Translations under genes and position numbers: made by a program
Source: a virus
DNA length: 64,000 bases
IMG/VR virus record: IMGVR_UViG_3300027743_000002
Location: 1-64,000 of that record
Strand: one strand, 5' to 3'
Shown here: in pieces, positions 3,314-31,700 of the stretch
How positions within the stretch are numbered: the first letter of the stretch is position 1
How the letters are laid out: each line of letters begins with the position of its first letter
The notes under the pieces: model-generated
Database searches by the model: none
The model's input: the letters and a program-made list of their open reading frames with translations, nothing else
What the model was told of the DNA's origin: nothing

Positions 3314-4050
3314 TCATCAAGCCACGCGACGGGGCGGAAAGTTGGCAACCCAACGAACCGCCCCCAAGCAACTTCGACCAAGCCGCGTATCAGCAGAAAA
3401 TCGACAAGATCGTCGGTACTAAAGATACGCGGCCCATCATTAAACTCGCGTGGGCACCAGAGGAATTTCGTTGGTGGCCCATTCGGGTAGATGAAGAAGA
3501 ACCCAAGGGTTATGTCTTTCCGATCTTTCACGCTTACACGACCGCTGAAGGGAAGTTGGTAGCTGCGCCTCGGTGGGTACTCTTAGAACGGATTGAGCCT
3601 GCGCAGTATGCCCCGACACCGCAGTTTTGGGAGAGCAAGCGGTATCAGTTTGACGACGGTTCATTGTGGGACTTGACGGGGCCAGTTCCCGACGAGAAGT
3701 ACATTGAATTACGTTGCCACTCGCACCATGACGGAATCTGTTGTGCGTGCATTGGAACGACATGTGAATGTGGAATTGAATATGCTCATTGTTGGGGTAG
3801 GTACGCAGAGCCGGATGAGCATCTGTTAAATTGGATACGGCAAAAGAATTGGGAAGCACAACATGATAATGACGTGCAACCCGACGCTGATGCGCGGTAC
3901 TTTTCGGCTCCGCAAAGTCAGGCTGATTACAAGTCGGAGATTGTAAATCGGCAGGAGCAGCAGAAAGAAGATCGGCGCAAGTACAACGATTACATGTTAG
4001 ACCATTGGGAACGTAAACCTGTTTCGACCGTAGGCCCAACTAGGGCATAA
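3310..4050 (+). CDS. Hypothetical protein with Cys/His cluster
   Basis: ATGA overlap with previous gene; CHSHHDGICCACIGTTCECG. Confidence 0.7.
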   Translation: MIIKPRDGAESWQPNEPPPSNFDQAAYQQKIDKIVGTKDTRPIIKLAWAPEEFRWWPIRVDEEEPKGYVFPIFHAYTTAEGKLVAAPRWVLLERIEPAQYAPTPQFWESKRYQFDDGSLWDLTGPVPDEKYIELRCHSHHDGICCACIGTTCECGIEYAHCWGRYAEPDEHLLNWIRQKNWEAQHDNDVQPDADARYFSAPQSQADYKSEIVNRQEQQKEDRRKYNDYMLDHWERKPVSTVGPTRA

Positions 4051-4057
4051 AGGACAT

Positions 4058-5287
4058 TTGATGTCGCAAGTTTTAGAAGTCAGTCAAGGTTATCCGGTAG
4101 AAGGTCGGCCCTTTGAGCCACCACAACTCAGTCGGCAGAACGAGCAACCCCGTTACATCACCTTTGTTGGCAGTCTCGTTGAGGCAAGTGTTGCTCTCGA
4201 CCGCCCGTGGACAAAGGGCGGGGGCATTGAAATCGGCAATCCTTGTCTGCGGTACACAAAGAACTTTGTCCGCAAAGGTCGGATTACTCCGGTACTGAAA
4301 GACGTTCACGATTGGGTAACTCAAGACTATTGGGAGAAAGCGACGGGCAGGGACGCGAGTTATTTTCCGCGCCAAGTTCCCGCAGGCTATGTATCTCCAC
4401 TGAACGAGAGTGGACATCCTAGCCCTATCAGAGCCATGTACGGCAAGATCGCAGTACCTGGGGAGCAGATGGATTCGATTCTCAATGGTTCTGCCAACAT
4501 CCTTGACCGCACGCGACGAGGAGTGGTGGAACTGACCGAGTTAGCGGGGCACGAATACAATCCGCAAGACTTGGGTGACGGGATTGTTACCGACCCGACG
4601 ATTTGGAAGATTCAACGAACGATTCTGCCTGACTATCCATTCATTATGAAAGATGGTCAGCCAACGGTGTTGTTGGATGACATTGAAGAAGTCCTGCTTG
4701 ATGCACAGCGACATACATCGTTGCGGTCGATTGTGGACAAGTATCTGACTTCGCTGAATCAGTTCCGCGACTTCGCTAAAGGGTCAGTTGATCAGACTCA
4801 CTATCGGATGAAAGAGTCGGCGGTGAAGTCGGATTCCGGCTACATCTGGAAGTACACTGAACTTGATTTCGTGTTGATGGAGCAGTTGGGTGTTCAGCGT
4901 CAAGACAGAGAGATTCGCCAAGCGAACAAGGCCCAACCAAACGAGCGGTTGGAGAACATGTTCGAGCAGTGGTTAGCGATTCAGATTGAGGAGAAGCAGG
5001 CTAACCTTGAGCGACAGAAGCAGTTTGCAGTTGACCAGAACACGATGGCCGCAGCCCCGATTCAAGACAAAGGATTCGACGGGCAATCTGGTTATTCGGG
5101 CTATTCAGGGGAAGTGGTGACAAATGCCACAGCCCAAGGCCAAGAGGAAATCGCCGTAGCGATGGCTGATACGATGCACACATGCGAGTGTGGGAAAGAA
5201 TTCGACACCGCGCAGGGCATTTCAATGCACAAGGCTCGTTGGTGTGAACTGCTAAACAAGACAGAGACGGGAGAAGACAACGCCTAA
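4058..5287 (+). CDS. Hypothetical protein with C-terminal C2H-type zinc finger
   Basis: 409 aa; HTCECGKEFDTAQGISMHKARWC; short GQSGYSGYSG motif. Confidence 0.7.
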   Translation: MMSQVLEVSQGYPVEGRPFEPPQLSRQNEQPRYITFVGSLVEASVALDRPWTKGGGIEIGNPCLRYTKNFVRKGRITPVLKDVHDWVTQDYWEKATGRDASYFPRQVPAGYVSPLNESGHPSPIRAMYGKIAVPGEQMDSILNGSANILDRTRRGVVELTELAGHEYNPQDLGDGIVTDPTIWKIQRTILPDYPFIMKDGQPTVLLDDIEEVLLDAQRHTSLRSIVDKYLTSLNQFRDFAKGSVDQTHYRMKESAVKSDSGYIWKYTELDFVLMEQLGVQRQDREIRQANKAQPNERLENMFEQWLAIQIEEKQANLERQKQFAVDQNTMAAAPIQDKGFDGQSGYSGYSGEVVTNATAQGQEEIAVAMADTMHTCECGKEFDTAQGISMHKARWCELLNKTETGEDNA

Positions 5288-6041
5288 TCTCTACGACATC
5301 GGAACCAACACGCGAGTTCGACTCGGAATGCCACGGTCAGAGGCTCCGACAGAACTCGCTGTGTTGAATCAGAACTGCTCGCAGATTAGAAATCTCAAGA
5401 AGTTCAAGCGAGCCACGGGCAATCCGTGGGACTTCAACGACCTTGTGTTGGAGACTTCGGCTGACGAATCCACCTACCAAATTAGTCAGACCGATTTTGG
5501 GCAACCTCTCGCGGTGCTAACGTGGGCACCCGAACTCTCCACTTGGACACCTCGTTTAATCAAAATCTTTGAACCGCAGAACTTGGTGCTAAACATTCCC
5601 ACAGTGGGGAATAATACCTTAGCGAGTTACGCTTATTTACCGTGGGACGGTTCTAACTGCACCGCTCAACGGTGTGCCTTCTATTGGCGCAACAACGTGC
5701 CTTTTATCGAGTTTTGGCCCGCACCGACAACTTCGATAGCGTCTTATAAAATTCGCTACCTTCAGAACAGTAACAACTTAAATACCATCTCTCTAAATGA
5801 AGCCCCTTTGCAGAATGACGATTGCGATCTTGTTGAAATCCGTTCTGCGCTTGCGTTGCTTCCGTTGACGCAATGGATGGCTGAAGAAGGGGACGGTTTG
5901 GCTTACAACGCGAACAAACGTAAGGAACTCGCGGCAAGTTTGGGCGCAGAAGAACAAGAAGCCACACGATTGTTTGAAGCAATGGCGCGACAAACTACGG
6001 GGCCAAGAATGTATCAACGATGGAATCCGACAGTGGGCTAA
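5280..6041 (+). CDS. Putative head-tail adaptor; probable ACG start at 5280 (first ATG is 5328)
   Basis: SD GGAGA then in-frame ACG-CCT-AAT-CTC; YWRNNVPFIEFWPAP..YKIRY resembles adaptor proteins. Confidence 0.5.
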   Translation, partial: TPNLYDIGTNTRVRLGMPRSEAPTELAVLNQNCSQIRNLKKFKRATGNPWDFNDLVLETSADESTYQISQTDFGQPLAVLTWAPELSTWTPRLIKIFEPQNLVLNIPTVGNNTLASYAYLPWDGSNCTAQRCAFYWRNNVPFIEFWPAPTTSIASYKIRYLQNSNNLNTISLNEAPLQNDDCDLVEIRSALALLPLTQWMAEEGDGLAYNANKRKELAASLGAEEQEATRLFEAMARQTTGPRMYQRWNPTVG

Positions 6042-6317
6042 ATGCAGACCTCACCGCTAAAAAACGGCGATAAACTTCCCGATCATCCTAGCGACACCAC
6101 CGCTTTACAAATAACCAAGTACGGACGAGTTTTTGACGCAACCGATGGGCTAGAGTTACTGCCTAATCTCCACCGAACTGAGATCGGAATGTTACGGGGT
6201 GGAGAAAGAGGCGGTCTATCTCATTTGTACAGATTTCACATCGAATCCGGCCACATTTTTCACACACGAGCGGCGGCTGTAGTTGAGGTAGAATGTGAAA
6301 GTATTGACTCTGAATAG
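6042..6317 (+). CDS. Hypothetical protein; its 3' end is mirrored by pentamer array 2
   Basis: 91 aa; ATG directly after the upstream TAA. Confidence 0.7.
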   Translation: MQTSPLKNGDKLPDHPSDTTALQITKYGRVFDATDGLELLPNLHRTEIGMLRGGERGGLSHLYRFHIESGHIFHTRAAAVVEVECESIDSE

Positions 6318-6332
6318 CGAATAGAGTAGATT
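6304..6332 (+). promoter_or_regulatory. Promoter of the RAMP/pentamer cassette
   Basis: TTGACT-17 nt-TAGATT; predicted +1 near 6339 coincides with the first base of the leader stem. Confidence 0.65.
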
Positions 6333-6338
6333 GCTCCC

Positions 6339-6468
6339 GCCGACCAAGATTGAATGGCGTGGGCTTTGTTTTTAGCCTTAACAGATTCCAGATACTTAGA
6401 CCAAAATCGTCCGCGCTTGTCTTGGTCGGCAGGCTCTAACGAAGGTCGGGTGTCTGGAATTTGTTTTT
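6339..6468 (+). ncRNA. Structured leader RNA with interleaved helices
   Basis: 6339-6349 pairs perfectly with 6420-6430; 6380-6395 pairs with 6450-6465 (2 G-U), followed by a T run. Confidence 0.55.
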
Positions 6469-6471
6469 CAG

Positions 6472-6536
6472 GGAGTGGCGTGGTGCGCTGGTTTAGGGTT
6501 GGCATAGGTCAGTTCCGGCTTGGTATGGTGCGCTAT
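6472..6536 (+). repeat. Pentamer array 1 (G[G]Y-NN); putative guide RNA
   Basis: 13 units: gga-gt ggc-gt ggt-gc gct-gg ttt-ag ggt-tg gca-ta ggt-ca gtt-cc ggc-tt ggt-at ggt-gc gct-at. Confidence 0.8.
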
Positions 6537-6556
6537 TCCTCTAAGGAGAATCTGTT

Positions 6557-7192
6557 ATGGCTACAGCAAAAGCAAAACTAGAAGCATTGAGTCCGGTGTC
6601 AAACGATGCCGCAGAAACGATTTCATTTGAGGAACCGTATATCGTGACGGTTCAGATTGAAGGCACTGCGCCGATTCTTTTCCATCGGTGGTCTTGTGAA
6701 GACGTGGAAGCCAAGGCCAACGCAAAGAAGAACTCCAAAGCTAAGAAAACCGACAATGTGGAGTCCTACATCTATCGCAATGAGTTGAATCAAATCTGTT
6801 TGCCAGGTGAGTACGTGCGGCAGACAATTATTCATGCCGCGAAGTTCAAGCAAGACCCGCGTTCACCTCGTAAATCGGCAATGGACTTGTTCAAGGCGTC
6901 GATTGTGGCGTTGACCGAACTCGCACCGTTGAATGGTGGTACAGAAACGTGGGATTACATTGACCAACGACGAGTAGTGATTCAGCGGGCAGCTATCACG
7001 CGAATGCGGCCCGCGTTTGCGAAAGGATGGACAGCAGAGATGGATTTCTCGATTCTCTGTCCTGAGTATGTTGATCCACATTTGTTTAATGAGGTGTTGG
7101 CTCTATCTGGAAAGTTGATCGGCACAGCAGATGGTCGCCCTAGTTATGGACGATTTCAAGTGAACAAGTGCTCTGTAGTTGGGCTTGCTTAG
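6557..7192 (+). CDS. Stand-alone RAMP/Cas7-like RNA-binding protein
   Basis: 211 aa; N-terminal VQIEGTAPILFH strand, LPGEYVRQTI helix, C-terminal G-rich loop GKLIGTADGRPSYGRF typical of RAMP proteins; SD TAAGGAG. Confidence 0.75.
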   Translation: MATAKAKLEALSPVSNDAAETISFEEPYIVTVQIEGTAPILFHRWSCEDVEAKANAKKNSKAKKTDNVESYIYRNELNQICLPGEYVRQTIIHAAKFKQDPRSPRKSAMDLFKASIVALTELAPLNGGTETWDYIDQRRVVIQRAAITRMRPAFAKGWTAEMDFSILCPEYVDPHLFNEVLALSGKLIGTADGRPSYGRFQVNKCSVVGLA

Positions 7193-7318
7193 GTTATGGC
7201 TAATTCAGCCACGGTCGGCTAGGTATCGTTGTGTTGTGGTATGCCGAGCAGTGGTGAGGGTGGCTGCGGAATGTTCCGCTTTGGTCTTGCAACGGTGAGG
7301 CGTGGCCTTATAAGGAGA
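7193..7318 (+). repeat. Pentamer array 2 (G[G]Y-NN); putative guide RNA
   Basis: G at the first position in 18 of 19 units 7193-7287; 1-nt register slip at 7288; 6 more units ending in palindrome CCTTATAAGG. Confidence 0.85.
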
Positions 7319-7383
7319 GTTGCGGTGAGGTATGGAACGGCGAGCTGAGCATGGTCGTGTTGGGGTTCGGTTTGGTCAGGTAA
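7319..7383 (+). repeat. Pentamer array 3 (G[G]Y-NN); putative guide RNA
   Basis: 13 of 13 units begin with G: gtt-gc ggt-ga ggt-at gga-ac ggc-ga gct-ga gca-tg gtc-gt gtt-gg ggt-tc ggt-tt ggt-ca ggt-aa. Confidence 0.85.
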
Positions 7384-7422
7384 GAAAGAGCTAAGATAAG
7401 ATTCATTATCTTGGCTCTTTCT
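7383..7422 (+). terminator. 17-bp hairpin closing the cassette
   Basis: agaaagagctaagataa-gattca-ttatcttggctctttct, one U-G pair. Confidence 0.7.
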
Positions 7423-7439
7423 ATTGTATACTCAACGAA

Positions 7440-9488
7440 ATGCCTAAGTTGACGAGGGAAGAAACTCAAACACTCTTTAGAGCTTTAGAGATTTCTTCTT
7501 TGTCCGAGATCGATGATGATTGGGTAGGCCAGTTTCTCTCCAAACTCAACGACCCTGTAAAGAAAGCCGCGTGGAATCAACTTCTCGGAATCATCGAAGA
7601 ATTCCGTCCTGAAGAATACAAACGCCTCAACAACTTCGCCAAGAACAACAAGGGAATGCTGCTGGAGTTCCAAGGATGGGAACGCTGGTTAAAGACTCTG
7701 GGAGCGCAGACCTTTACCCGCGACTTTGCCCCGATTCAAAAGAGATTTTGGGATTGGAATTGGCGAGCGTTGCTGAAGATTCGCAAGAACGTCCCGCTTG
7801 ATCCGAAAGAGATGGTTGGCTTTTTACCATGGTCCAGGGAGACGGGGAAAAGTTCAGTAACCGAGTGGGCGTGCATTGCCGAAGGAGCCTTGCTCAGAGG
7901 CGGGTATGTCATCTTCTACTCAGGCAAGCAATCGCAAGCAGAGGAACACGTTACTTCAATCCGTGACCGCATTGAATCTGAGCATGTCAGTGACCTTTAT
8001 CCGTGGTTAGGGAAGCCCAAGGTCGGCGCACACGGAAACAAGTTTGGATGGGGTAAAGAGTTCCTGATGACGAGTGGTGGTTGGGCCATCCGACCTGTTG
8101 GAGCTGATGTAGCGATACGCGGCGGTAAGACACTCAACCTTAGACCAACGCTGATCGTGGTAGACGACCTTGATGAACTCGGTGAGTCACCCGTTGTGGT
8201 CGAACACAAGGAACAGATTCTCACTCGCTCAATTCTGCCGATGGGGAATGACAAAACTCGTGTACTTGTCCCGCAGAATCCCATTCACGCGAACTCAGTA
8301 GTCAATCGAATGCTGACGGGCGTGTCACTTGCGTTGGCGATTAGAACCGTGTTCGGGGAGTTGAATGATGACGGTTCAATGTCCACTCGTCCTGTACCTG
8401 CGGTGCGCGACTTTGCTTACGAAGTCCGCCAAACCGATGAAGGCCCATTCTCTAAAATCACTCAAGGCGAAACGAACTGGCCTGGGATTACGATAGAAGG
8501 TTGGGAGCGAACTCTTAATCGTGTTGGGCCACTAGCATTCGAGAGCGAATACCAACACCGACTCGACGTAATGTTAGAGGAAAGGGTTCTTCCCGAATAC
8601 GATGACAGGGTGCTACGGACGAATCTGATTTCGTGGAGTCAATATGAAACAATGTATGGGACTCGTCGGATTCCGAGTGATTGGATTTGTGATGTTGGTT
8701 GCGATATTGGATATTCGGTAGGCCATCGAACTGCGTTTACATTTCTCACGCGAGCACCGCACGGCGCACCTCTAGCGGGAAGTATTTTTCGTTATCGAGG
8801 ATGTGTATTCACGGCTACCACGATTGGAGAAATGAGCACATCAGTAAAAGCCCGTCTATGGCCTGATGAAAACCTTCAGCGGGAATGGTTGAGTCACGAG
8901 AAGTTAGGCGAGCGGCTAGTGCTTAATCGAGAGCATGGTTGGCACTTCCAGACGTGCGAAAGTGCAAAAACCGCAGGAATTCCGCAATGGAGGCACTTTC
9001 TCAAGTCTGATAAGACGCAGCCGCATCCATTTCACCGAGATGAAAAAAGTGTAGATGGCTTGTGGAAGATTGGTCGTCCAGCATGGTTTGATGTTGTGGA
9101 CGATGACCAGTTCTTTCAACCCTATGATGACCGTGGATTAAAGGTGCATCGTGACCAAGCATTTAATTGGCGACTAAAGCCTGAGAAGCTGACGGAAAGC
9201 GGGCTGACTATTCAGCAGCCTATGAAGGCAGACGAAGATTCCTGCGACGCTACGAGAATGTGTACAGCCGCTCCAAATTTTGGGCCAACTATGCGAGGAA
9301 TGACCCAATATGAAAAGGTGCAAGCCATTATCCCGCAGGGCTATCATGTTAATGAGTTAGTCAAACGTGTTGACTTAGACCCTAACCAACAACACATGAC
9401 TGGTCAGATGGCAACCTTTTTAGCGAGAAAAACATTAGGCTTGGATAAGCCTAAATTAGTTGATCCATGGGGCCAGCCGATAAGGTAA
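7440..9488 (+). CDS. terL: Terminase large subunit
   Basis: 682 aa; Walker A SRETGKS, Walker B IVVDDLD, FESEYQH, RNase H-like GCDIG and C-terminal DEDSCDA. Confidence 0.9.
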   Translation: MPKLTREETQTLFRALEISSLSEIDDDWVGQFLSKLNDPVKKAAWNQLLGIIEEFRPEEYKRLNNFAKNNKGMLLEFQGWERWLKTLGAQTFTRDFAPIQKRFWDWNWRALLKIRKNVPLDPKEMVGFLPWSRETGKSSVTEWACIAEGALLRGGYVIFYSGKQSQAEEHVTSIRDRIESEHVSDLYPWLGKPKVGAHGNKFGWGKEFLMTSGGWAIRPVGADVAIRGGKTLNLRPTLIVVDDLDELGESPVVVEHKEQILTRSILPMGNDKTRVLVPQNPIHANSVVNRMLTGVSLALAIRTVFGELNDDGSMSTRPVPAVRDFAYEVRQTDEGPFSKITQGETNWPGITIEGWERTLNRVGPLAFESEYQHRLDVMLEERVLPEYDDRVLRTNLISWSQYETMYGTRRIPSDWICDVGCDIGYSVGHRTAFTFLTRAPHGAPLAGSIFRYRGCVFTATTIGEMSTSVKARLWPDENLQREWLSHEKLGERLVLNREHGWHFQTCESAKTAGIPQWRHFLKSDKTQPHPFHRDEKSVDGLWKIGRPAWFDVVDDDQFFQPYDDRGLKVHRDQAFNWRLKPEKLTESGLTIQQPMKADEDSCDATRMCTAAPNFGPTMRGMTQYEKVQAIIPQGYHVNELVKRVDLDPNQQHMTGQMATFLARKTLGLDKPKLVDPWGQPIR

Positions 9489-27423: not shown

Positions 27424-28794
27424 ATGCCGATTTCTTCTCGCTCCCCCAATCGCGTTACCGTCACCGAAGACTATGCCGTTAAATACACGGATGATTACGT
27501 CACTTTTCAGATAGCCGCCGATAAAACGGCTTCTTTACCTCACGCCTCACAATGTCAGTTAGGTTACTTCCAGAAAATCATTATCAATCAATTTGGGCTG
27601 AGTAGTTCAGTCGCCATAGTTCCGCAAGATGGTGACACGTTTGAAGGGGTGAGTTCACTCACTTCTGGTCAATGCGTGACCTTAACTAGCGATGGTATAT
27701 CGAAGTGGTCAAGCGTGTTGGGTCTTTATATCGGAACGACGATGGTGGGCATTTCTGGCTTCTCTGGCCCACAAGGAATGAGTGGTTGGAGTGGTTATTC
27801 CGGCGCGTCAGGCGCAGGCGGTACGGGGCCAGCGGGCGTCTCAGGCTACTCCGGTTTTAGTGGTGGAGGGGTCAGCGGCTTTAGTGGATTCTCTGGCGCG
27901 GGAAGCAGTGGGTTTTCAGGCTACAGCGGCACATCGGGGTTCTCTGGATATTCTGGAAGGTCAGGATTTAGTGGTACGAATGGTTCCAATGGAGTGAGTG
28001 GTTTCAGCGGCTATTCAGCAGTTGGTACATCGGGATTTTCGGGCTTCTCAGGTAGTGCAGGTAGCACGGGGAACACGGGGACTTCTGGATTCAGTGGATA
28101 CTCAGGATATTCTGGCTTCTCTGGCTTGAACGGTTCAACGGGACAAACTGGATCGGCAGGCACGAGCGGTTTCAGCGGGTATAGTGGCAATAACGGCGCA
28201 GCAGGAGCAGGAGGCGCATCGGGCTTCAGTGGTTACAGCGCAGTCGGTTCATCTGGTTTTAGCGGTTATAGCGGACTACCAAGCGCAAGTGGCTTTAGCG
28301 GTTATTCGGGGGTGAGCGGATTTTCCGGTTACAGCGGAATCAGCGGAGTCAATGGCACATCGCCTGCTTATGCTCGCGTGACGGTGGCAGATGCAACCAC
28401 AACGGGCCAAGCGTTAGTAGACATTGCGGGGCTTTCCATTGCGTTGTCTGCGAATGCGGTTTATGAGTATCAAGCCGTGCTTTCAGTGCTCACATCTGCT
28501 GTTACTACGGGTGTGCAATATGGAGTAAACTACAGTGTCGCAGGTGGCGCGGTTGAAGGACAACTTATTGGATCATCGACTGCCACAGCGACTAAATCAG
28601 AGCGAGTGAGCGCGTTGAATACCGCATCAGGGACTTATCTAACGACTTCGGGGCAAAATGGTCAAGTGTTGATGAAAGGGATCGTGACCACGGGAGTCAA
28701 TGCGGGGAATTTGACCATCAAGCATTTGAAAGTTTCGAGCGGAACCGCAACTTGTAGAATCAATTCATTCTTAAAGGTGACAAGAATCAGTTAA
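27424..28794 (+). CDS. Gly-(F/Y)-Ser repeat fibre-like protein with N- and C-terminal globular domains
   Basis: N-domain paralogous to 36444 and 36984; about 200 aa of repeats; beta-rich C-domain. Confidence 0.8.
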   Translation: MPISSRSPNRVTVTEDYAVKYTDDYVTFQIAADKTASLPHASQCQLGYFQKIIINQFGLSSSVAIVPQDGDTFEGVSSLTSGQCVTLTSDGISKWSSVLGLYIGTTMVGISGFSGPQGMSGWSGYSGASGAGGTGPAGVSGYSGFSGGGVSGFSGFSGAGSSGFSGYSGTSGFSGYSGRSGFSGTNGSNGVSGFSGYSAVGTSGFSGFSGSAGSTGNTGTSGFSGYSGYSGFSGLNGSTGQTGSAGTSGFSGYSGNNGAAGAGGASGFSGYSAVGSSGFSGYSGLPSASGFSGYSGVSGFSGYSGISGVNGTSPAYARVTVADATTTGQALVDIAGLSIALSANAVYEYQAVLSVLTSAVTTGVQYGVNYSVAGGAVEGQLIGSSTATATKSERVSALNTASGTYLTTSGQNGQVLMKGIVTTGVNAGNLTIKHLKVSSGTATCRINSFLKVTRIS

Positions 28795-28797
28795 TTT

Positions 28798-31700
28798 ATG
28801 AAGCCACGTTACAGTATTGTTATTCCGACGCACAAACACCTCACCGACGCGCTTATTCCCTGCCTCCAAAGTATCCAAAAATACACTGACCTTTCTGACT
28901 GTGAAATTCTTGTCGTGGCAAATGGTTGTGGCAACGACTTCACGCGAGAGTACGTGCAGACGCTAGGCGCACCCTTCAAACTCATCTGGATAGATGAACA
29001 AGCAGGCTATACAAAATCCGTGAATGCGGGCATCAGAGCCGCGCAAGGCGAGTTCGTCTTACTGCTCAACAATGACTGTCAGATACTTGAAAGTCCTCGC
29101 GGTGAGTGGTTGGAAACTTTGGTTGCTCCGATGGCTGACCCGCAAATAGGGATGGTCGGGATTCACGAACTTTGGAGCGCAGAAATCAACAGCAACTTCA
29201 TCGTGTTTTATTGTGCGCTCATTCGTCGCTCAGTGTTTGATGTTGTCGGTTTACCTGATGAACTGTTCAGCCCTGGTTTCGGTGAGGACATAGACTTCTG
29301 TGCGCGGCTGATGAGAGCAGGATACAAATACGCTAATGTTGATCCAACTGCTAACCAAGCAGGAGAGTTGTGTATCGGTACTTTTCCTTTGTATCACGCG
29401 GGCGGCAAGACCTTTCACGACTCAGCGCATGACGCGGGTTACAAAATAATAGTGGAGCGCAACTTGAAGATTCTGCGCAATCGGTATCAGCCCGTGAAGT
29501 TGTTGGCTGTCTTAGTCAACTTTGGAGTTGAAGGTTTATCGCACTTATATCAGACCATCGACAGTCTCAAGAGTTTCGATTCTCGTTATACAGTGGACAT
29601 TGTTGTCCATTCCAACGTGGCTGTTGGCAGAGACGACATCCGAGAGATTATTCACGCGGAAGCCCCGTGGGGTGATTGGCTCAACTTGCCGTGGAAGTGT
29701 CGGGAAACACTTCACCAAGAACGCGAGAACTACGACCTCTATCTTTATGCCGAACATGACCATCTTTTCACGCAAAGAAACATAGATGCGTTTCTGGAAA
29801 TAACACCCTTTCTGTCGGATGCTGAGATTGCGGGATTTATCGAGTGGGAACATTCCCCTCAAGGGCGATTTTACCCCGCATGGCACGCTGATTATGGATG
29901 GGGTGAATCATTCACGAACGATGCAGGGACATTCGCCAAGTTCACTAATCTACATCAAGGCAGTTTCTTAGCTACCCGTAGGCAATTAGCACGGGCTATC
30001 GCGGTTGGTAAAGAAGCGTTTCTTGACCCACAGCGACGTTTGTTTTCGAGTCCGTATGGCATTCGTGAACGGTGTAACACCGACTTTTACGATACAGGCT
30101 TCAAGAAGGTTATTCCGGTTTCGCGGTTTGAGGACTTTCTGATTCACCATCTGAGCGATCATTACTACGGTGTGTACGGTACGAAGTGCGATTCAGAGAT
30201 GAACAAGGCGTTGGCGGAACTAATTGAGCGTCCCGAAGTCTCCATCATCATTCCTACCTACAATCATTGTGACGATCTACTCCGTCCGTGTCTGGAAAGT
30301 CTGCGGGTTAATACTGACTTGACGCAGACAGAAATCTTAGTGATTTCAAATGGCTGTACCGATGGAACGGATGCTTACGTTAAATCGCTGGGCCATCCCT
30401 TTAAACTGATTAGCCACAGAGCACAACTCGGATTTACGAAAGCAACGAACATCGGGTTACGCGCAGCTCGTGGAAAGTATCTTGTCTTACTCAACAACGA
30501 CACCATCATTCAAGGAAGTGATTGGATTGACTTGATGAAGGCTCCATTCCTTGATCGGAAAGGCGTCGGCATGAGCGGGCCTATGCGCTTCGTGGGAGAA
30601 CCTGACAAGTCCAACGACTTCGTAATGATGTTCTGTTGTTGCACGACAAGGGCAGTTGTGGATGACATTGGCCTCCTTGATGAGCGATTCGCCCCTGGTG
30701 GTGTCGAAGACGTTGACTACGGACTCCGGCTCTTATTAGCCGGATATGAGTTAGTACAAGTACCGGAAAATCACGCAGTCGCATTTGAGCCTGATTTGTC
30801 TACGGGAGCCTTCCCAATCTTCCACAGTGGCAATGCTACTTATCGAGATGAAGCGGGTTGGCACGCGAACTTGATTCGCAACAATGGCCGACTCAAAGCT
30901 AAGTTCCCTGAATACTTCAAGGGCTTAACGTGGATTGAAGAAATGGCCGTGAGTGAACCGCAGCCACTTGATTTTGCGGCTCTCCATGAGCAAATGAAAG
31001 AAGCAGACAGTTGGCTGCATTGGGAAATGTTTGACGTAGACGTGAATCAGGCCAAGCGAGAAGAATTAGCAGGCAAGACCGTCATCGACATTGGGGCCAA
31101 CAAGGGCTTCTTTGCTATTCACGCGTTGGAGTTGGGAGCCAAAGAAGTTTATTGCTTTGAGCCAGTCCATGAAATCTACGAACAGCAGCTTCAACTCGTG
31201 GGTGATATTCCGCAAGTTCATTCCTTTAATTTGGCCGTGTTAGATGGTTCGGTGTCAGAAGTCCACATGCACGAAGCAGGTGTGGTATCGAACATTTGGG
31301 GCGACCCAACTACTTCTCCAACTCCGTGCGTTTCGTTGGTCACAGCGTTGAGTCATGTGCCTGACCATTCCAACATGGTCTTGAAGATTGACTGTGAAGG
31401 CTCAGAGTTTGAAATCCTGTTTCATACGCCTGCCAACGTGATTCGGCAATTCTCAACCATCTACGTTGAGATGCACGACGAAATGAATCCCAACTTTCAA
31501 CACAAGACTCCTGAGTTGTTGAGTTATCTACACTCATTGGGATTCACGAGCGAGCAAGGGCCACAAGCATCAACTTGGTTGGAAGATGGTTCATCCGAAG
31601 AATCTCCCGTGCGTATTTACAAGATGAGACGAAGTGAACAACCGCGTGTGACGGTAATCATTCCTACTTATCAACGCTATGGACTGTTGCGGGAAGCGTT

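What the first reader, a model, noticed from the sequence alone, without database searches (positions are those of the whole stretch)
7319..7538. Array 3 dinucleotides mirror the 5' end of the adjacent terL gene, so both flanks of the cassette are encoded in its guides
Seen: NN gc ga at ac ga ga tg gt gg tc tt ca versus terL codons 7503-7538 (tc ga at ga ga ga tg gt gg ca tt ct) gives 18/24 nt and 8/12 exact, again on positions 1+2. It decodes as AEITDDWVGSFQ versus own SEIDDDWVGQFL. Alone this is marginal window-wide (about 4e-7 per position), but it lies 120 nt from the array and in codon register. Inference: guides against both neighbours suggest homing- or drive-like behaviour, blocking or replacing the cassette-free allele, or silencing a competitor's packaging gene during co-infection.
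Basis: partly seen in the sequence, partly recalled or inferred. Interest (0 to 1): 0.88.

Follow-up and report, generated by a model that had tools for sequence, protein, structure and literature searches.

The report
VIPR guide aimed at rival terL
This is a member of the VIPR phage system described in 2026 (a small Cas7-like protein plus guide RNAs made of five-letter repeats), and one guide matches the packaging gene of sibling phages that lack the cassette better than it matches the phage's own copy.

Summary
The 12 variable dinucleotides of array 3 (7319-7378), read with one base skipped, match terL codons 22-33 (7503-7538) at 18/24 bases. That is the best site in the genome but marginal alone: 5% of order-shuffled guides do as well.

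The system is already in print. It is a VIPR locus (bioRxiv 10.64898/2026.04.26.720920), a Vipr RAMP protein plus GGY/NN guide RNAs that read DNA with a one-base skip at the wobble position. The 211-aa protein folds like Cas7 and is homologous to the Vipr of phage SUSP1.

- Two relatives with an empty site carry EITDDWVG and match at 21/24 and 19/24. One is a 97%-complete genome with no vipr.
- Two cassette carriers carry EIDD(D/N)WVG and match at 18/24.
- A nine-unit pattern has one hit in IMG/VR, and it is that sibling site.
- A sister cassette keeps all 24 guide bases while 10 of 24 scaffold bases differ.
- Its second guide hits the left-flank gene at 32/36.

The likely function is silencing of a rival's packaging genes, with the phage's own copy spared by mismatches. 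Homing is not shown.

The parts
6042..6317 (+). ORF91, a small gene of unknown function directly upstream of terL in cassette-free relatives. It is the left flank of the cassette.
   Evidence: Homologue ORF92 in L081 (2242-2520) overlaps the terL start. There are six homologues in 5.8 billion proteins and no Pfam or PHROG family.
6255..6302 (+). Near-self match of vrRNA2 (24/32 NN bases, 75%) in the last codons of ORF91 (IFHTRAAAVVEVECES).
   Evidence: Best site in the whole genome; the next best scores 19. 0/300 and 0/200 shuffled guides reach 24.
6304..6332 (+). Sigma-70-like promoter at the left edge of the cassette (TTGACT-17-TAGATT).
   Evidence: Consensus scan only, 9/12. Function is inferred.
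6472..6536 (+). vrRNA1 repeat tract, 13 pentamers in the vipr leader. It is an orphan guide.
   Evidence: Units listed. Best matches in the phage's own genome and in the sibling genome are at background (16/26).
6557..7192 (+). vipr, a 211-aa Cas7-like RAMP protein.
   Evidence: phrog_4652. 5848 homologues. The AF2 model matches type VII Cas7 and Csm3 at E 4e-6. hhalign against SUSP1 Vipr gives probability 97.9%, E 4e-13.
7193..7287 (+). vrRNA2 repeat tract, 19 pentamers. One scaffold G is broken, at 7203.
7319..7378 (+). vrRNA3 guide, 12 GBY-NN pentamers, with extra units at 7314 and 7379.
   Evidence: All 24 NN bases are identical in sister locus L094 while 10/24 scaffold bases differ.
7383..7422 (+). 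17-bp hairpin followed by a T-rich run. It is the 3' tail of vrRNA3 and the cassette terminator.
   Evidence: Fold of -24.4 kcal/mol, z -6.0. It is conserved in L094.
7440..9488 (+). terL, the terminase large subunit. It is the right flank of the cassette.
   Evidence: phrog_38, E 4.5e-16. 78% identical to the L081 TerL.
7503..7538 (+). Own-genome counterpart of the vrRNA3 target, terL codons 22-33. It matches at 18/24 NN bases (75%).
   Evidence: The homologous site in sibling L081 (2564-2599) matches at 21/24.

Best explanation
Window 6318-7439 is a 1.1-kb VIPR cassette inserted between ORF91 and terL of an uncultivated 74.7-kb phage with direct terminal repeats. It holds a promoter, vrRNA1, vipr, vrRNA2, vrRNA3 and a terminator hairpin.

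By homology with the characterised SUSP1 system, Vipr protomers should polymerise on each vrRNA. Each protomer hides a GGY scaffold and presents the NN pair, and the filament binds double-stranded DNA whose sequence reads NNx NNx and so on. This step is inferred here; it is shown only for SUSP1.

vrRNA3 is a conserved guide against terL codons 22-33 as they occur in sibling phages that lack the cassette (AEITDDWVG...). Binding there would block terL transcription in a rival genome during co-infection or superinfection. This is also inferred.

The phage's own terL escapes because it carries 6 mismatched guide bases, including a double mismatch in the fourth unit (ACC to GAT). That leaves it at 75%, under the 80% level the VIPR papers use to call a target. 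The left-flank gene ORF91 is treated the same way by vrRNA2 and by the sister cassette's second guide. The protective alleles therefore lie within about 100 nt of the cassette on both sides.
For: **It is VIPR.**
- Pentamer arrays flank the gene here and in 67 of 80 related viral loci.
- The protein has a Cas7 fold and is homologous to SUSP1 Vipr.
- The published rule is a 1-nt skip at the wobble position.

**The guide is aimed at the rival allele.**
- L081/G001 has no vipr in 72.5 kb at 97% completeness. About 70 nt there replace window 6231-7439.
- Its terL site is the top hit in that genome at 21/24, and 0/200 shuffled guides exceed 18.
- L092 also has an empty site and matches at 19/24 with 8 perfect consecutive units. 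The cassette carriers, the window and L094, match at 18/24.
- The pattern of 9 units plus TT has a single hit in 2.9 million IMG/VR contigs, and it is that site.

**The guide is under selection.**
- Between the window and L094, NN bases differ at 0/24 and scaffold bases at 10/24 (Fisher p = 6e-4).
- Two of the 3 TerL amino-acid differences in 243 codons lie in the 12-codon site.

**The left flank is also targeted.**

The papers report self-match scores lower than rival-match scores as the way autoimmunity is avoided, and no self hit at 80% or above.
Against: - No sampled allele matches all 12 units. The last three units (TC TT CA) fit none of the known terL alleles.
- The gap between rival and self is only 3 bases (21 against 18), and the mismatch tolerance of this Vipr is unknown.
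- For the window's own vrRNA2, no allele with known DNA beats the self match (19-21/32 against 24/32).
- TerL acts in trans, so in a mixed infection the carrier's enzyme might rescue the rival.
- No expression data, host or isolate exists.
- Only four DNA alleles of the site are known.
Confidence: 0.7

Rival explanations
1. The cassette is a drive-like or homing-like selfish element. Because it silences the empty-site alleles on both sides of its own insertion point, it favours recombinants that take up the cassette together with the linked resistant flanks. It would then spread through the phage population in the manner of marker exclusion by phage homing endonucleases.
For: - The site is polymorphic for cassette presence.
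- Both flank genes are guide targets within about 100 nt of the junctions.
- Between the window and L094, vipr is much less diverged at third codon positions (12/210) than the adjacent terL (64/243). This suggests the cassette was shared more recently than its flank.
- The Vipr gene sits in many different gene contexts: 79 of 80 loci lack this terL.
- Earlier scan note e1-6059674 reports the same logic in another virus.
Against: - The 1.1-kb cassette has no nuclease or recombinase, so nothing would create the break that drives homing.
- Silencing alone does not copy the cassette.
- The proximity of the targets may simply reflect that terL is a good essential target.
Confidence: 0.25
2. The guides regulate the phage's own genes. 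Partial matches (75%) of vrRNA2 and vrRNA3 to the phage's own ORF91 and terL would tune or delay late packaging-gene expression.
For: - The best genome-wide sites of both guides lie in the phage's own adjacent genes.
- Own-locus matches recur in related loci at period 3 only: 7 of 100 arrays have z above 3, against 0 at periods 2 and 4.
Against: - Empty-site relatives match vrRNA3 better than the carriers do.
- The carriers' amino-acid changes cluster in the site and reduce the match. That is the opposite of what a maintained self-target predicts.
- The published systems show no self hits at 80% or above.
Confidence: 0.1
3. The resemblance is chance, or a relic of a guide that no longer does anything.
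For: The self match alone is marginal: p is about 0.05 window-wide, and it is not the top hit when 13 to 15 units are used.
Against: - The sibling site matches at 21/24, with 0/200 shuffles reaching it.
- The pattern has a single hit in IMG/VR.
- NN bases are conserved against scaffold divergence.
- A second, independent guide in L094 hits the other flank gene at 32/36, against a permutation maximum of 24.
Confidence: 0.05

Closest known systems
VIPR system of Escherichia phage SUSP1 (type II; bioRxiv 10.64898/2026.04.26.720920, with structures in 10.64898/2026.04.26.720927)
   Same: - A small RAMP protein homologous to the one here (hhalign probability 97.9%).
- It is flanked by GGY/NN pentamer RNAs of 9-16 units, one upstream and several downstream.
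- It uses the 1-nt skip code with the skip at the wobble position, needs no PAM, and shows no self hit at 80% or above.
   Different: - The two proteins share only about 30% identity, and tblastn at E 1e-3 does not link them.
- There is no vap gene in this cassette.
- The scaffold is looser here (G-[G/C/T]-[T/A/C]).
- The tail is a plain 17-bp hairpin rather than the SUSP1 pseudoknot tail.
- The targets are a sibling phage's terL and its upstream gene, not a satellite.
Solo vrRNAs and vrRNA-targeting vrRNAs of SUSP1-family phages (bioRxiv 10.64898/2026.10.15.759431)
   Same: The guides are aimed at close relatives, and self-match scores are lower than rival-match scores. The authors read this as avoidance of autoimmunity.
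   Different: There the targets are vipr genes, vrRNAs or satellite genes. Here they are the structural genes on either side of the cassette's own insertion site, in relatives with an empty site.
Free-standing homing endonuclease cassettes of T4-like phages (marker exclusion)
   Same: A small intergenic cassette that is polymorphic among relatives. It acts on the cassette-free allele of the neighbouring gene, while the carrier's allele is resistant through nearby substitutions. This comparison rests on general knowledge, not on a tool result.
   Different: This cassette has no nuclease, and recognition is by RNA. The expected outcome is silencing rather than a double-strand break, so gene conversion of the cassette is not implied.
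Class 1 CRISPR-Cas backbone (Cas7/Csm3 filaments)
   Same: The RAMP fold is shared. The protein presumably also polymerises along a guide RNA with periodic unpaired positions.
   Different: The guide period is 5 nt, with 2 informative bases per protomer. There are no repeat-spacer array, no cas1/cas2 and no other cas genes.

Membership tests
VIPR (Vipr + vrRNA) | A small single-domain RAMP protein (about 20 kDa) with a C-terminal glycine loop, homologous to characterised Vipr. | tested here: met
   The protein is 211 aa. Its AF2 model (pLDDT 72.7) matches type VII Cas7 and Csm3 at E 4e-6 to 1e-4. The family profile against the SUSP1 195-aa protein between its arrays gives probability 97.9%, E 4.4e-13, and includes G.aD.RP.yGRF.
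VIPR (Vipr + vrRNA) | Tandem GGY/NN pentamer tracts of about 9-16 units flanking vipr. | tested here: met
   There are tracts of 13, 19 and 12-15 units with a near-invariant G every 5 nt. The same holds in 67/80 related loci. Scaffold positions 2 and 3 are looser than strict GGY.
VIPR (Vipr + vrRNA) | A conserved structured 3' tail after each repeat tract. | tested here: inconclusive
   vrRNA3 ends in a 17-bp hairpin (z -6.0) that is conserved in L094. The tails of vrRNA1 and vrRNA2 are short palindromes and were not analysed. There is no SUSP1-type tail and no Rfam family or hammerhead.
VIPR (Vipr + vrRNA) | Natural targets follow the 1-nt skip rule at 80% NN identity or above, with the skip at the wobble position. 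| tested here: met
   vrRNA3 against L081 terL matches at 21/24 (87.5%) in codon register. L094 vrRNA2 against L081 ORF92 matches at 32/36 (89%). In related loci only period 3 gives excess matches, not periods 2 or 4.
VIPR (Vipr + vrRNA) | No self target at 80% NN identity or above. | tested here: met
   The best self sites are at 75%, both 18/24 and 24/32.
VIPR (Vipr + vrRNA) | An accessory vap gene next to vipr (typical, not universal). | tested here: not met
   The only convincing ORF in 6318-7439 is vipr. The paper names six vap genes for seven types, so a type without vap is implied. The type of this locus was not assigned.
VIPR (Vipr + vrRNA) | vrRNAs are expressed, bound by Vipr, and silence matching double-stranded DNA. 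| not testable with these tools
   The phage is uncultivated and known only from a metagenome, with no isolate relative.
Homing-endonuclease-type mobile cassette | Encodes a site-specific nuclease that cuts the empty-site allele. | tested here: not met
   The cassette has no nuclease domain or family. The Vipr fold is a Cas7 backbone.
Homing-endonuclease-type mobile cassette | Presence/absence polymorphism at one site, with the target in the empty-site allele and a resistant allele in the carrier. | tested here: met
   There are two empty-site and two carrier genomes.
CRISPR-Cas class 1 | A repeat-spacer array plus adaptation and effector cas genes. | tested here: not met
   No such array or genes lie in or near the cassette.

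The most novel reading that the evidence does not exclude
VIPR cassettes of this clade are selfish elements that target their own empty site. Their guides are kept matched to the alleles of the genes on both sides of the insertion point, as those alleles occur in relatives without the cassette. The resistance alleles are then genetically locked to the cassette, and the unit spreads by recombination in mixed infections. This would be an RNA-guided, nuclease-free counterpart of homing-endonuclease marker exclusion. The three VIPR preprints, as far as I read them, do not describe it.
Probability: 0.3. Interest if true: 0.65.

Novelty: new member of a known kind. Interest (0 to 1): 0.42.

Why it matters
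The gapped, wobble-skipping guide code that made this finding look remarkable has been in print since April 2026, so the class is not new.

This locus adds a clean natural example of a VIPR guide aimed at an essential packaging gene of a sibling phage. Four things are visible in one small comparison:
- the rival allele;
- the carrier's escape allele;
- conservation of the guide bases against scaffold drift;
- a cluster of amino-acid changes at the target site.

It also hints that these cassettes preferentially target the alleles next to their own insertion site. That would link RNA-guided silencing to the population genetics of selfish phage cassettes. It would also give a simple way to predict VIPR targets: look at the neighbours in cassette-free relatives.

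Tried and rejected
- **Exact 12-unit vrRNA3 pattern.** There were 0 hits in IMG/VR and 0 in the phage's own genome with up to 3 mismatches.
- **vrRNA2 10-unit pattern in IMG/VR.** 0 hits.
- **L050 guide pattern, run to test whether the logic generalises.** 0 hits.
- **Genome-contig scan with a 10-unit pattern.** It gave one hit in an alphaproteobacterial MAG with no TerL homology. About one chance hit was expected.
- **vrRNA1.** It shows only background matches in the phage's own genome and the sibling genome.
- **The 80 Vipr-related loci.** None holds a better vrRNA2 or vrRNA3 match, and only L001 shares the terL context.
- **Isolate phages.** tblastn of TerL found none. tblastn of Vipr found only DSL-LC04 and Medea1, not SUSP1.
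- **ORF91.** No family and no Atlas lead.
- **Rfam.** Nothing, and no hammerhead.
- **The look-up of encoding contigs.** The DNA and cassette status of alleles P0123, P0124, P0126 and P0128 could therefore not be read. At the protein level P0123 reads AEITDPWVGQFL, and P0126 could match vrRNA2 at 23-27/32.
- **Ideas dropped before the literature search.** These were a TRAP-like ring-binding RNA, G-quadruplex DNA and a pac-site structure. The homology and the target data settled the matter.
- **Period-5 C runs in the sibling genome.** They are not GGY/NN arrays.

Full report
**What is in the sequence**

A + strand ORF of 211 aa lies between ORF91 (6042-6317) and terL (7440-9488, phrog_38). It spans 6557-7192 and belongs to phrog_4652, a family of unknown function. 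It is flanked by non-coding tracts in which every fifth base is G.

The tracts hold 8 strict units (13 with one break) at 6472-6536, 19 units at 7193-7287 and 15 units at 7314-7384. No other run of 10 or more such units exists in the 64-kb window. The unit is G-[G/C/T]-[T>A]-N-N. A 17-bp hairpin (7383-7422; -24.4 kcal/mol, z -6.0) closes the last tract just before terL.

**The claimed match**

The 12 NN pairs of array 3 are GC GA AT AC GA GA TG GT GG TC TT CA. Laid on 7503-7538 at period 3 they give 18/24 bases and 8/12 exact pairs, in register with terL codons 22-33.

This is the best site on both strands of the window and of the full 74,678-bp genome. Order-shuffled guides do as well somewhere in the window in 5% of trials, and in 1.4% for 8 exact pairs.

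The sister claim for array 2 (6255-6302, 24/32) is far stronger. The next best site scores 19, and none of 300 or 200 shuffles reach 24.

**What it is**

A literature search found that this architecture was published in 2026 as VIPR. Vipr is an ancestral RAMP protein. vrRNAs consist of 9-16 YNNGG repeats plus a 3' tail. The NN pairs recognise double-stranded DNA with one skipped base per unit, and the skip usually falls on the codon wobble position. Targets occur on either strand and need no PAM. Cryo-EM structures show a Vipr filament that hides each GGY and presents the NN bases.

Membership was tested here.
- The AF2 model of the 211-aa protein (pLDDT 72.7) matches type VII Cas7 and Csm3 (E 4e-6).
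- I located the SUSP1 locus from its period-5 arrays: two genes on the minus strand at 28031-29061 of NC_028808.2. The profile of the window's protein family aligns to the SUSP1 195-aa protein with probability 97.9%, E 4.4e-13, including the C-terminal G.aD.RP.yGRF loop.
- The family is large, with 5848 proteins at E 1e-3 or better. In 67 of 80 related viral loci the gene is flanked by such arrays, some with more than 60 units.
- The cassette holds no vap gene, and the type of this locus was not assigned.

The window's genome is a complete virus record with direct terminal repeats.

A sibling, L081/G001 (72.5 kb, 97% complete, TerL 78% identical), has no vipr anywhere. It aligns to the window on both sides of the cassette: window 4000-6230 at 82.6% identity and 7440-9220 at 75%. 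About 70 nt there stand in place of window 6231-7439, and ORF92 overlaps the terL start.

At the homologous terL site the sibling reads AEITDDWVGQFL. This matches 21/24 guide bases, with the first nine units perfect. It is the top hit in the whole sibling genome, and no shuffled guide exceeds 18.

A second empty-site relative, L092 (TerL 84%), reads HEITDDWVGLFL. It matches at 19/24, with eight perfect consecutive units.

The second cassette carrier, L094 (TerL 99%), reads SEIDDNWVGAFL and matches at 18/24, like the window.

A pattern of nine guide units plus TT has exactly one hit in 2.9 million IMG/VR contigs, and it is the sibling's terL site.

**Selection on the guide**

L094 carries the same 12-unit guide. 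All 24 NN bases are identical, while 10 of the 24 variable scaffold bases differ (Fisher p = 6e-4).

Of the three TerL amino-acid differences between the window and L094 in 243 codons, two fall in the 12-codon target site.

Upstream of vrRNA3, L094 has a different guide. Its 18 units match the N-terminal part of the ORF91 family at 32/36 in the sibling and 30/36 in the window's genome, against a shuffle maximum of 24. Two different guides in two sister cassettes therefore hit the left-flank gene, and one conserved guide hits the right-flank gene.

**Limits**

- No sampled allele matches all 12 units of vrRNA3, and the last three units fit none.
- For the window's vrRNA2 the DNA-known alleles score 19-21/32, below the self value of 24/32. 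It decodes as IYHTR(S/R)SVV(I/M)EVE(C/W)A(I/M), a mosaic of known ORF91 alleles. P0126, known only as protein, could reach 23-27/32.
- vrRNA1 has no target in either genome.

**Mechanism and rivals**

The best reading is that vrRNA3-Vipr filaments bind terL codons 22-33 of cassette-free siblings and block transcription of the packaging gene. The carrier's own copy is spared by mismatches and stays at 75%, under the 80% level the papers use to call a target. This agrees with their finding of no self hits at 80% or above, and of self scores lower than rival scores. Binding and silencing are inferred from SUSP1 and are not shown for this locus.

A drive-like reading is possible. The resistance alleles lie within about 100 nt of the cassette on both sides. 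Between the window and L094, vipr differs at 12 of 210 third codon positions and terL at 64 of 243. However, the cassette has no nuclease.

Self-regulation is disfavoured because the carriers' substitutions reduce the match.

In 100 non-redundant arrays from related loci, own-locus matches with z above 3 occur at period 3 (7 arrays) but not at period 2 or 4 (0 each). Several lie in adjacent portal, RecT or adaptor genes. Near-self matches to neighbouring essential genes may therefore be common in this clade. An attempt to confirm this for L050 found no sibling.

**Verdict**

The system and its code are already known. This scan has noted VIPR in at least 337 genomes, and note e1-6059674 describes the same neighbour-allele logic in another virus. 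This is a new member of a known kind, with a modestly new twist.

Noticed in passing
L094:643-760 (sister cassette), against window 6066-6118 and L081 2266-2318: The second guide of the sister cassette (18 units) matches the N-terminal part of the ORF91 family. It scores 32/36 in the vipr-less sibling and 30/36 (83%) in the window's own genome. By the published 80% criterion the window's phage could therefore be a target of its sister's VIPR.
   Followed up: yes
window 7440-8168 and 6565-7192 against L094: Third-codon-position divergence between the two carriers is 64/243 in terL but only 12/210 in vipr. The first six scaffold triplets of vrRNA3 differ at 10 of 12 variable positions. The cassette therefore looks mosaic and more recently exchanged than its flank.
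   Followed up: partly
L050:4180-4214, L004:4100-4149 (-), L058:1573-1610, L023:1885-1910: In other Vipr loci the best own-locus period-3 matches of the arrays (z 3.4 to 6.1) fall in adjacent portal, RecT-like and head-tail adaptor genes, mostly within 350 nt of the array.
   Followed up: partly
window 6472-6536: vrRNA1 lies in the vipr leader and ends at the ribosome-binding site. It has no match above background in the phage's own genome or the sibling genome, so its target is unknown.
   Followed up: partly
OR003939.1 22435-23043 (Phage DSL-LC04): The only isolate-type GenBank phage with a close homologue of this Vipr (57% identity) annotates it as a helix-turn-helix transcriptional regulator. 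That is probably a misannotation.
   Followed up: no
window 6339-6468: The leader between the promoter-like site and vrRNA1 gave only a weak, sub-threshold Rfam hit (mir-345, E 0.099).
   Followed up: no
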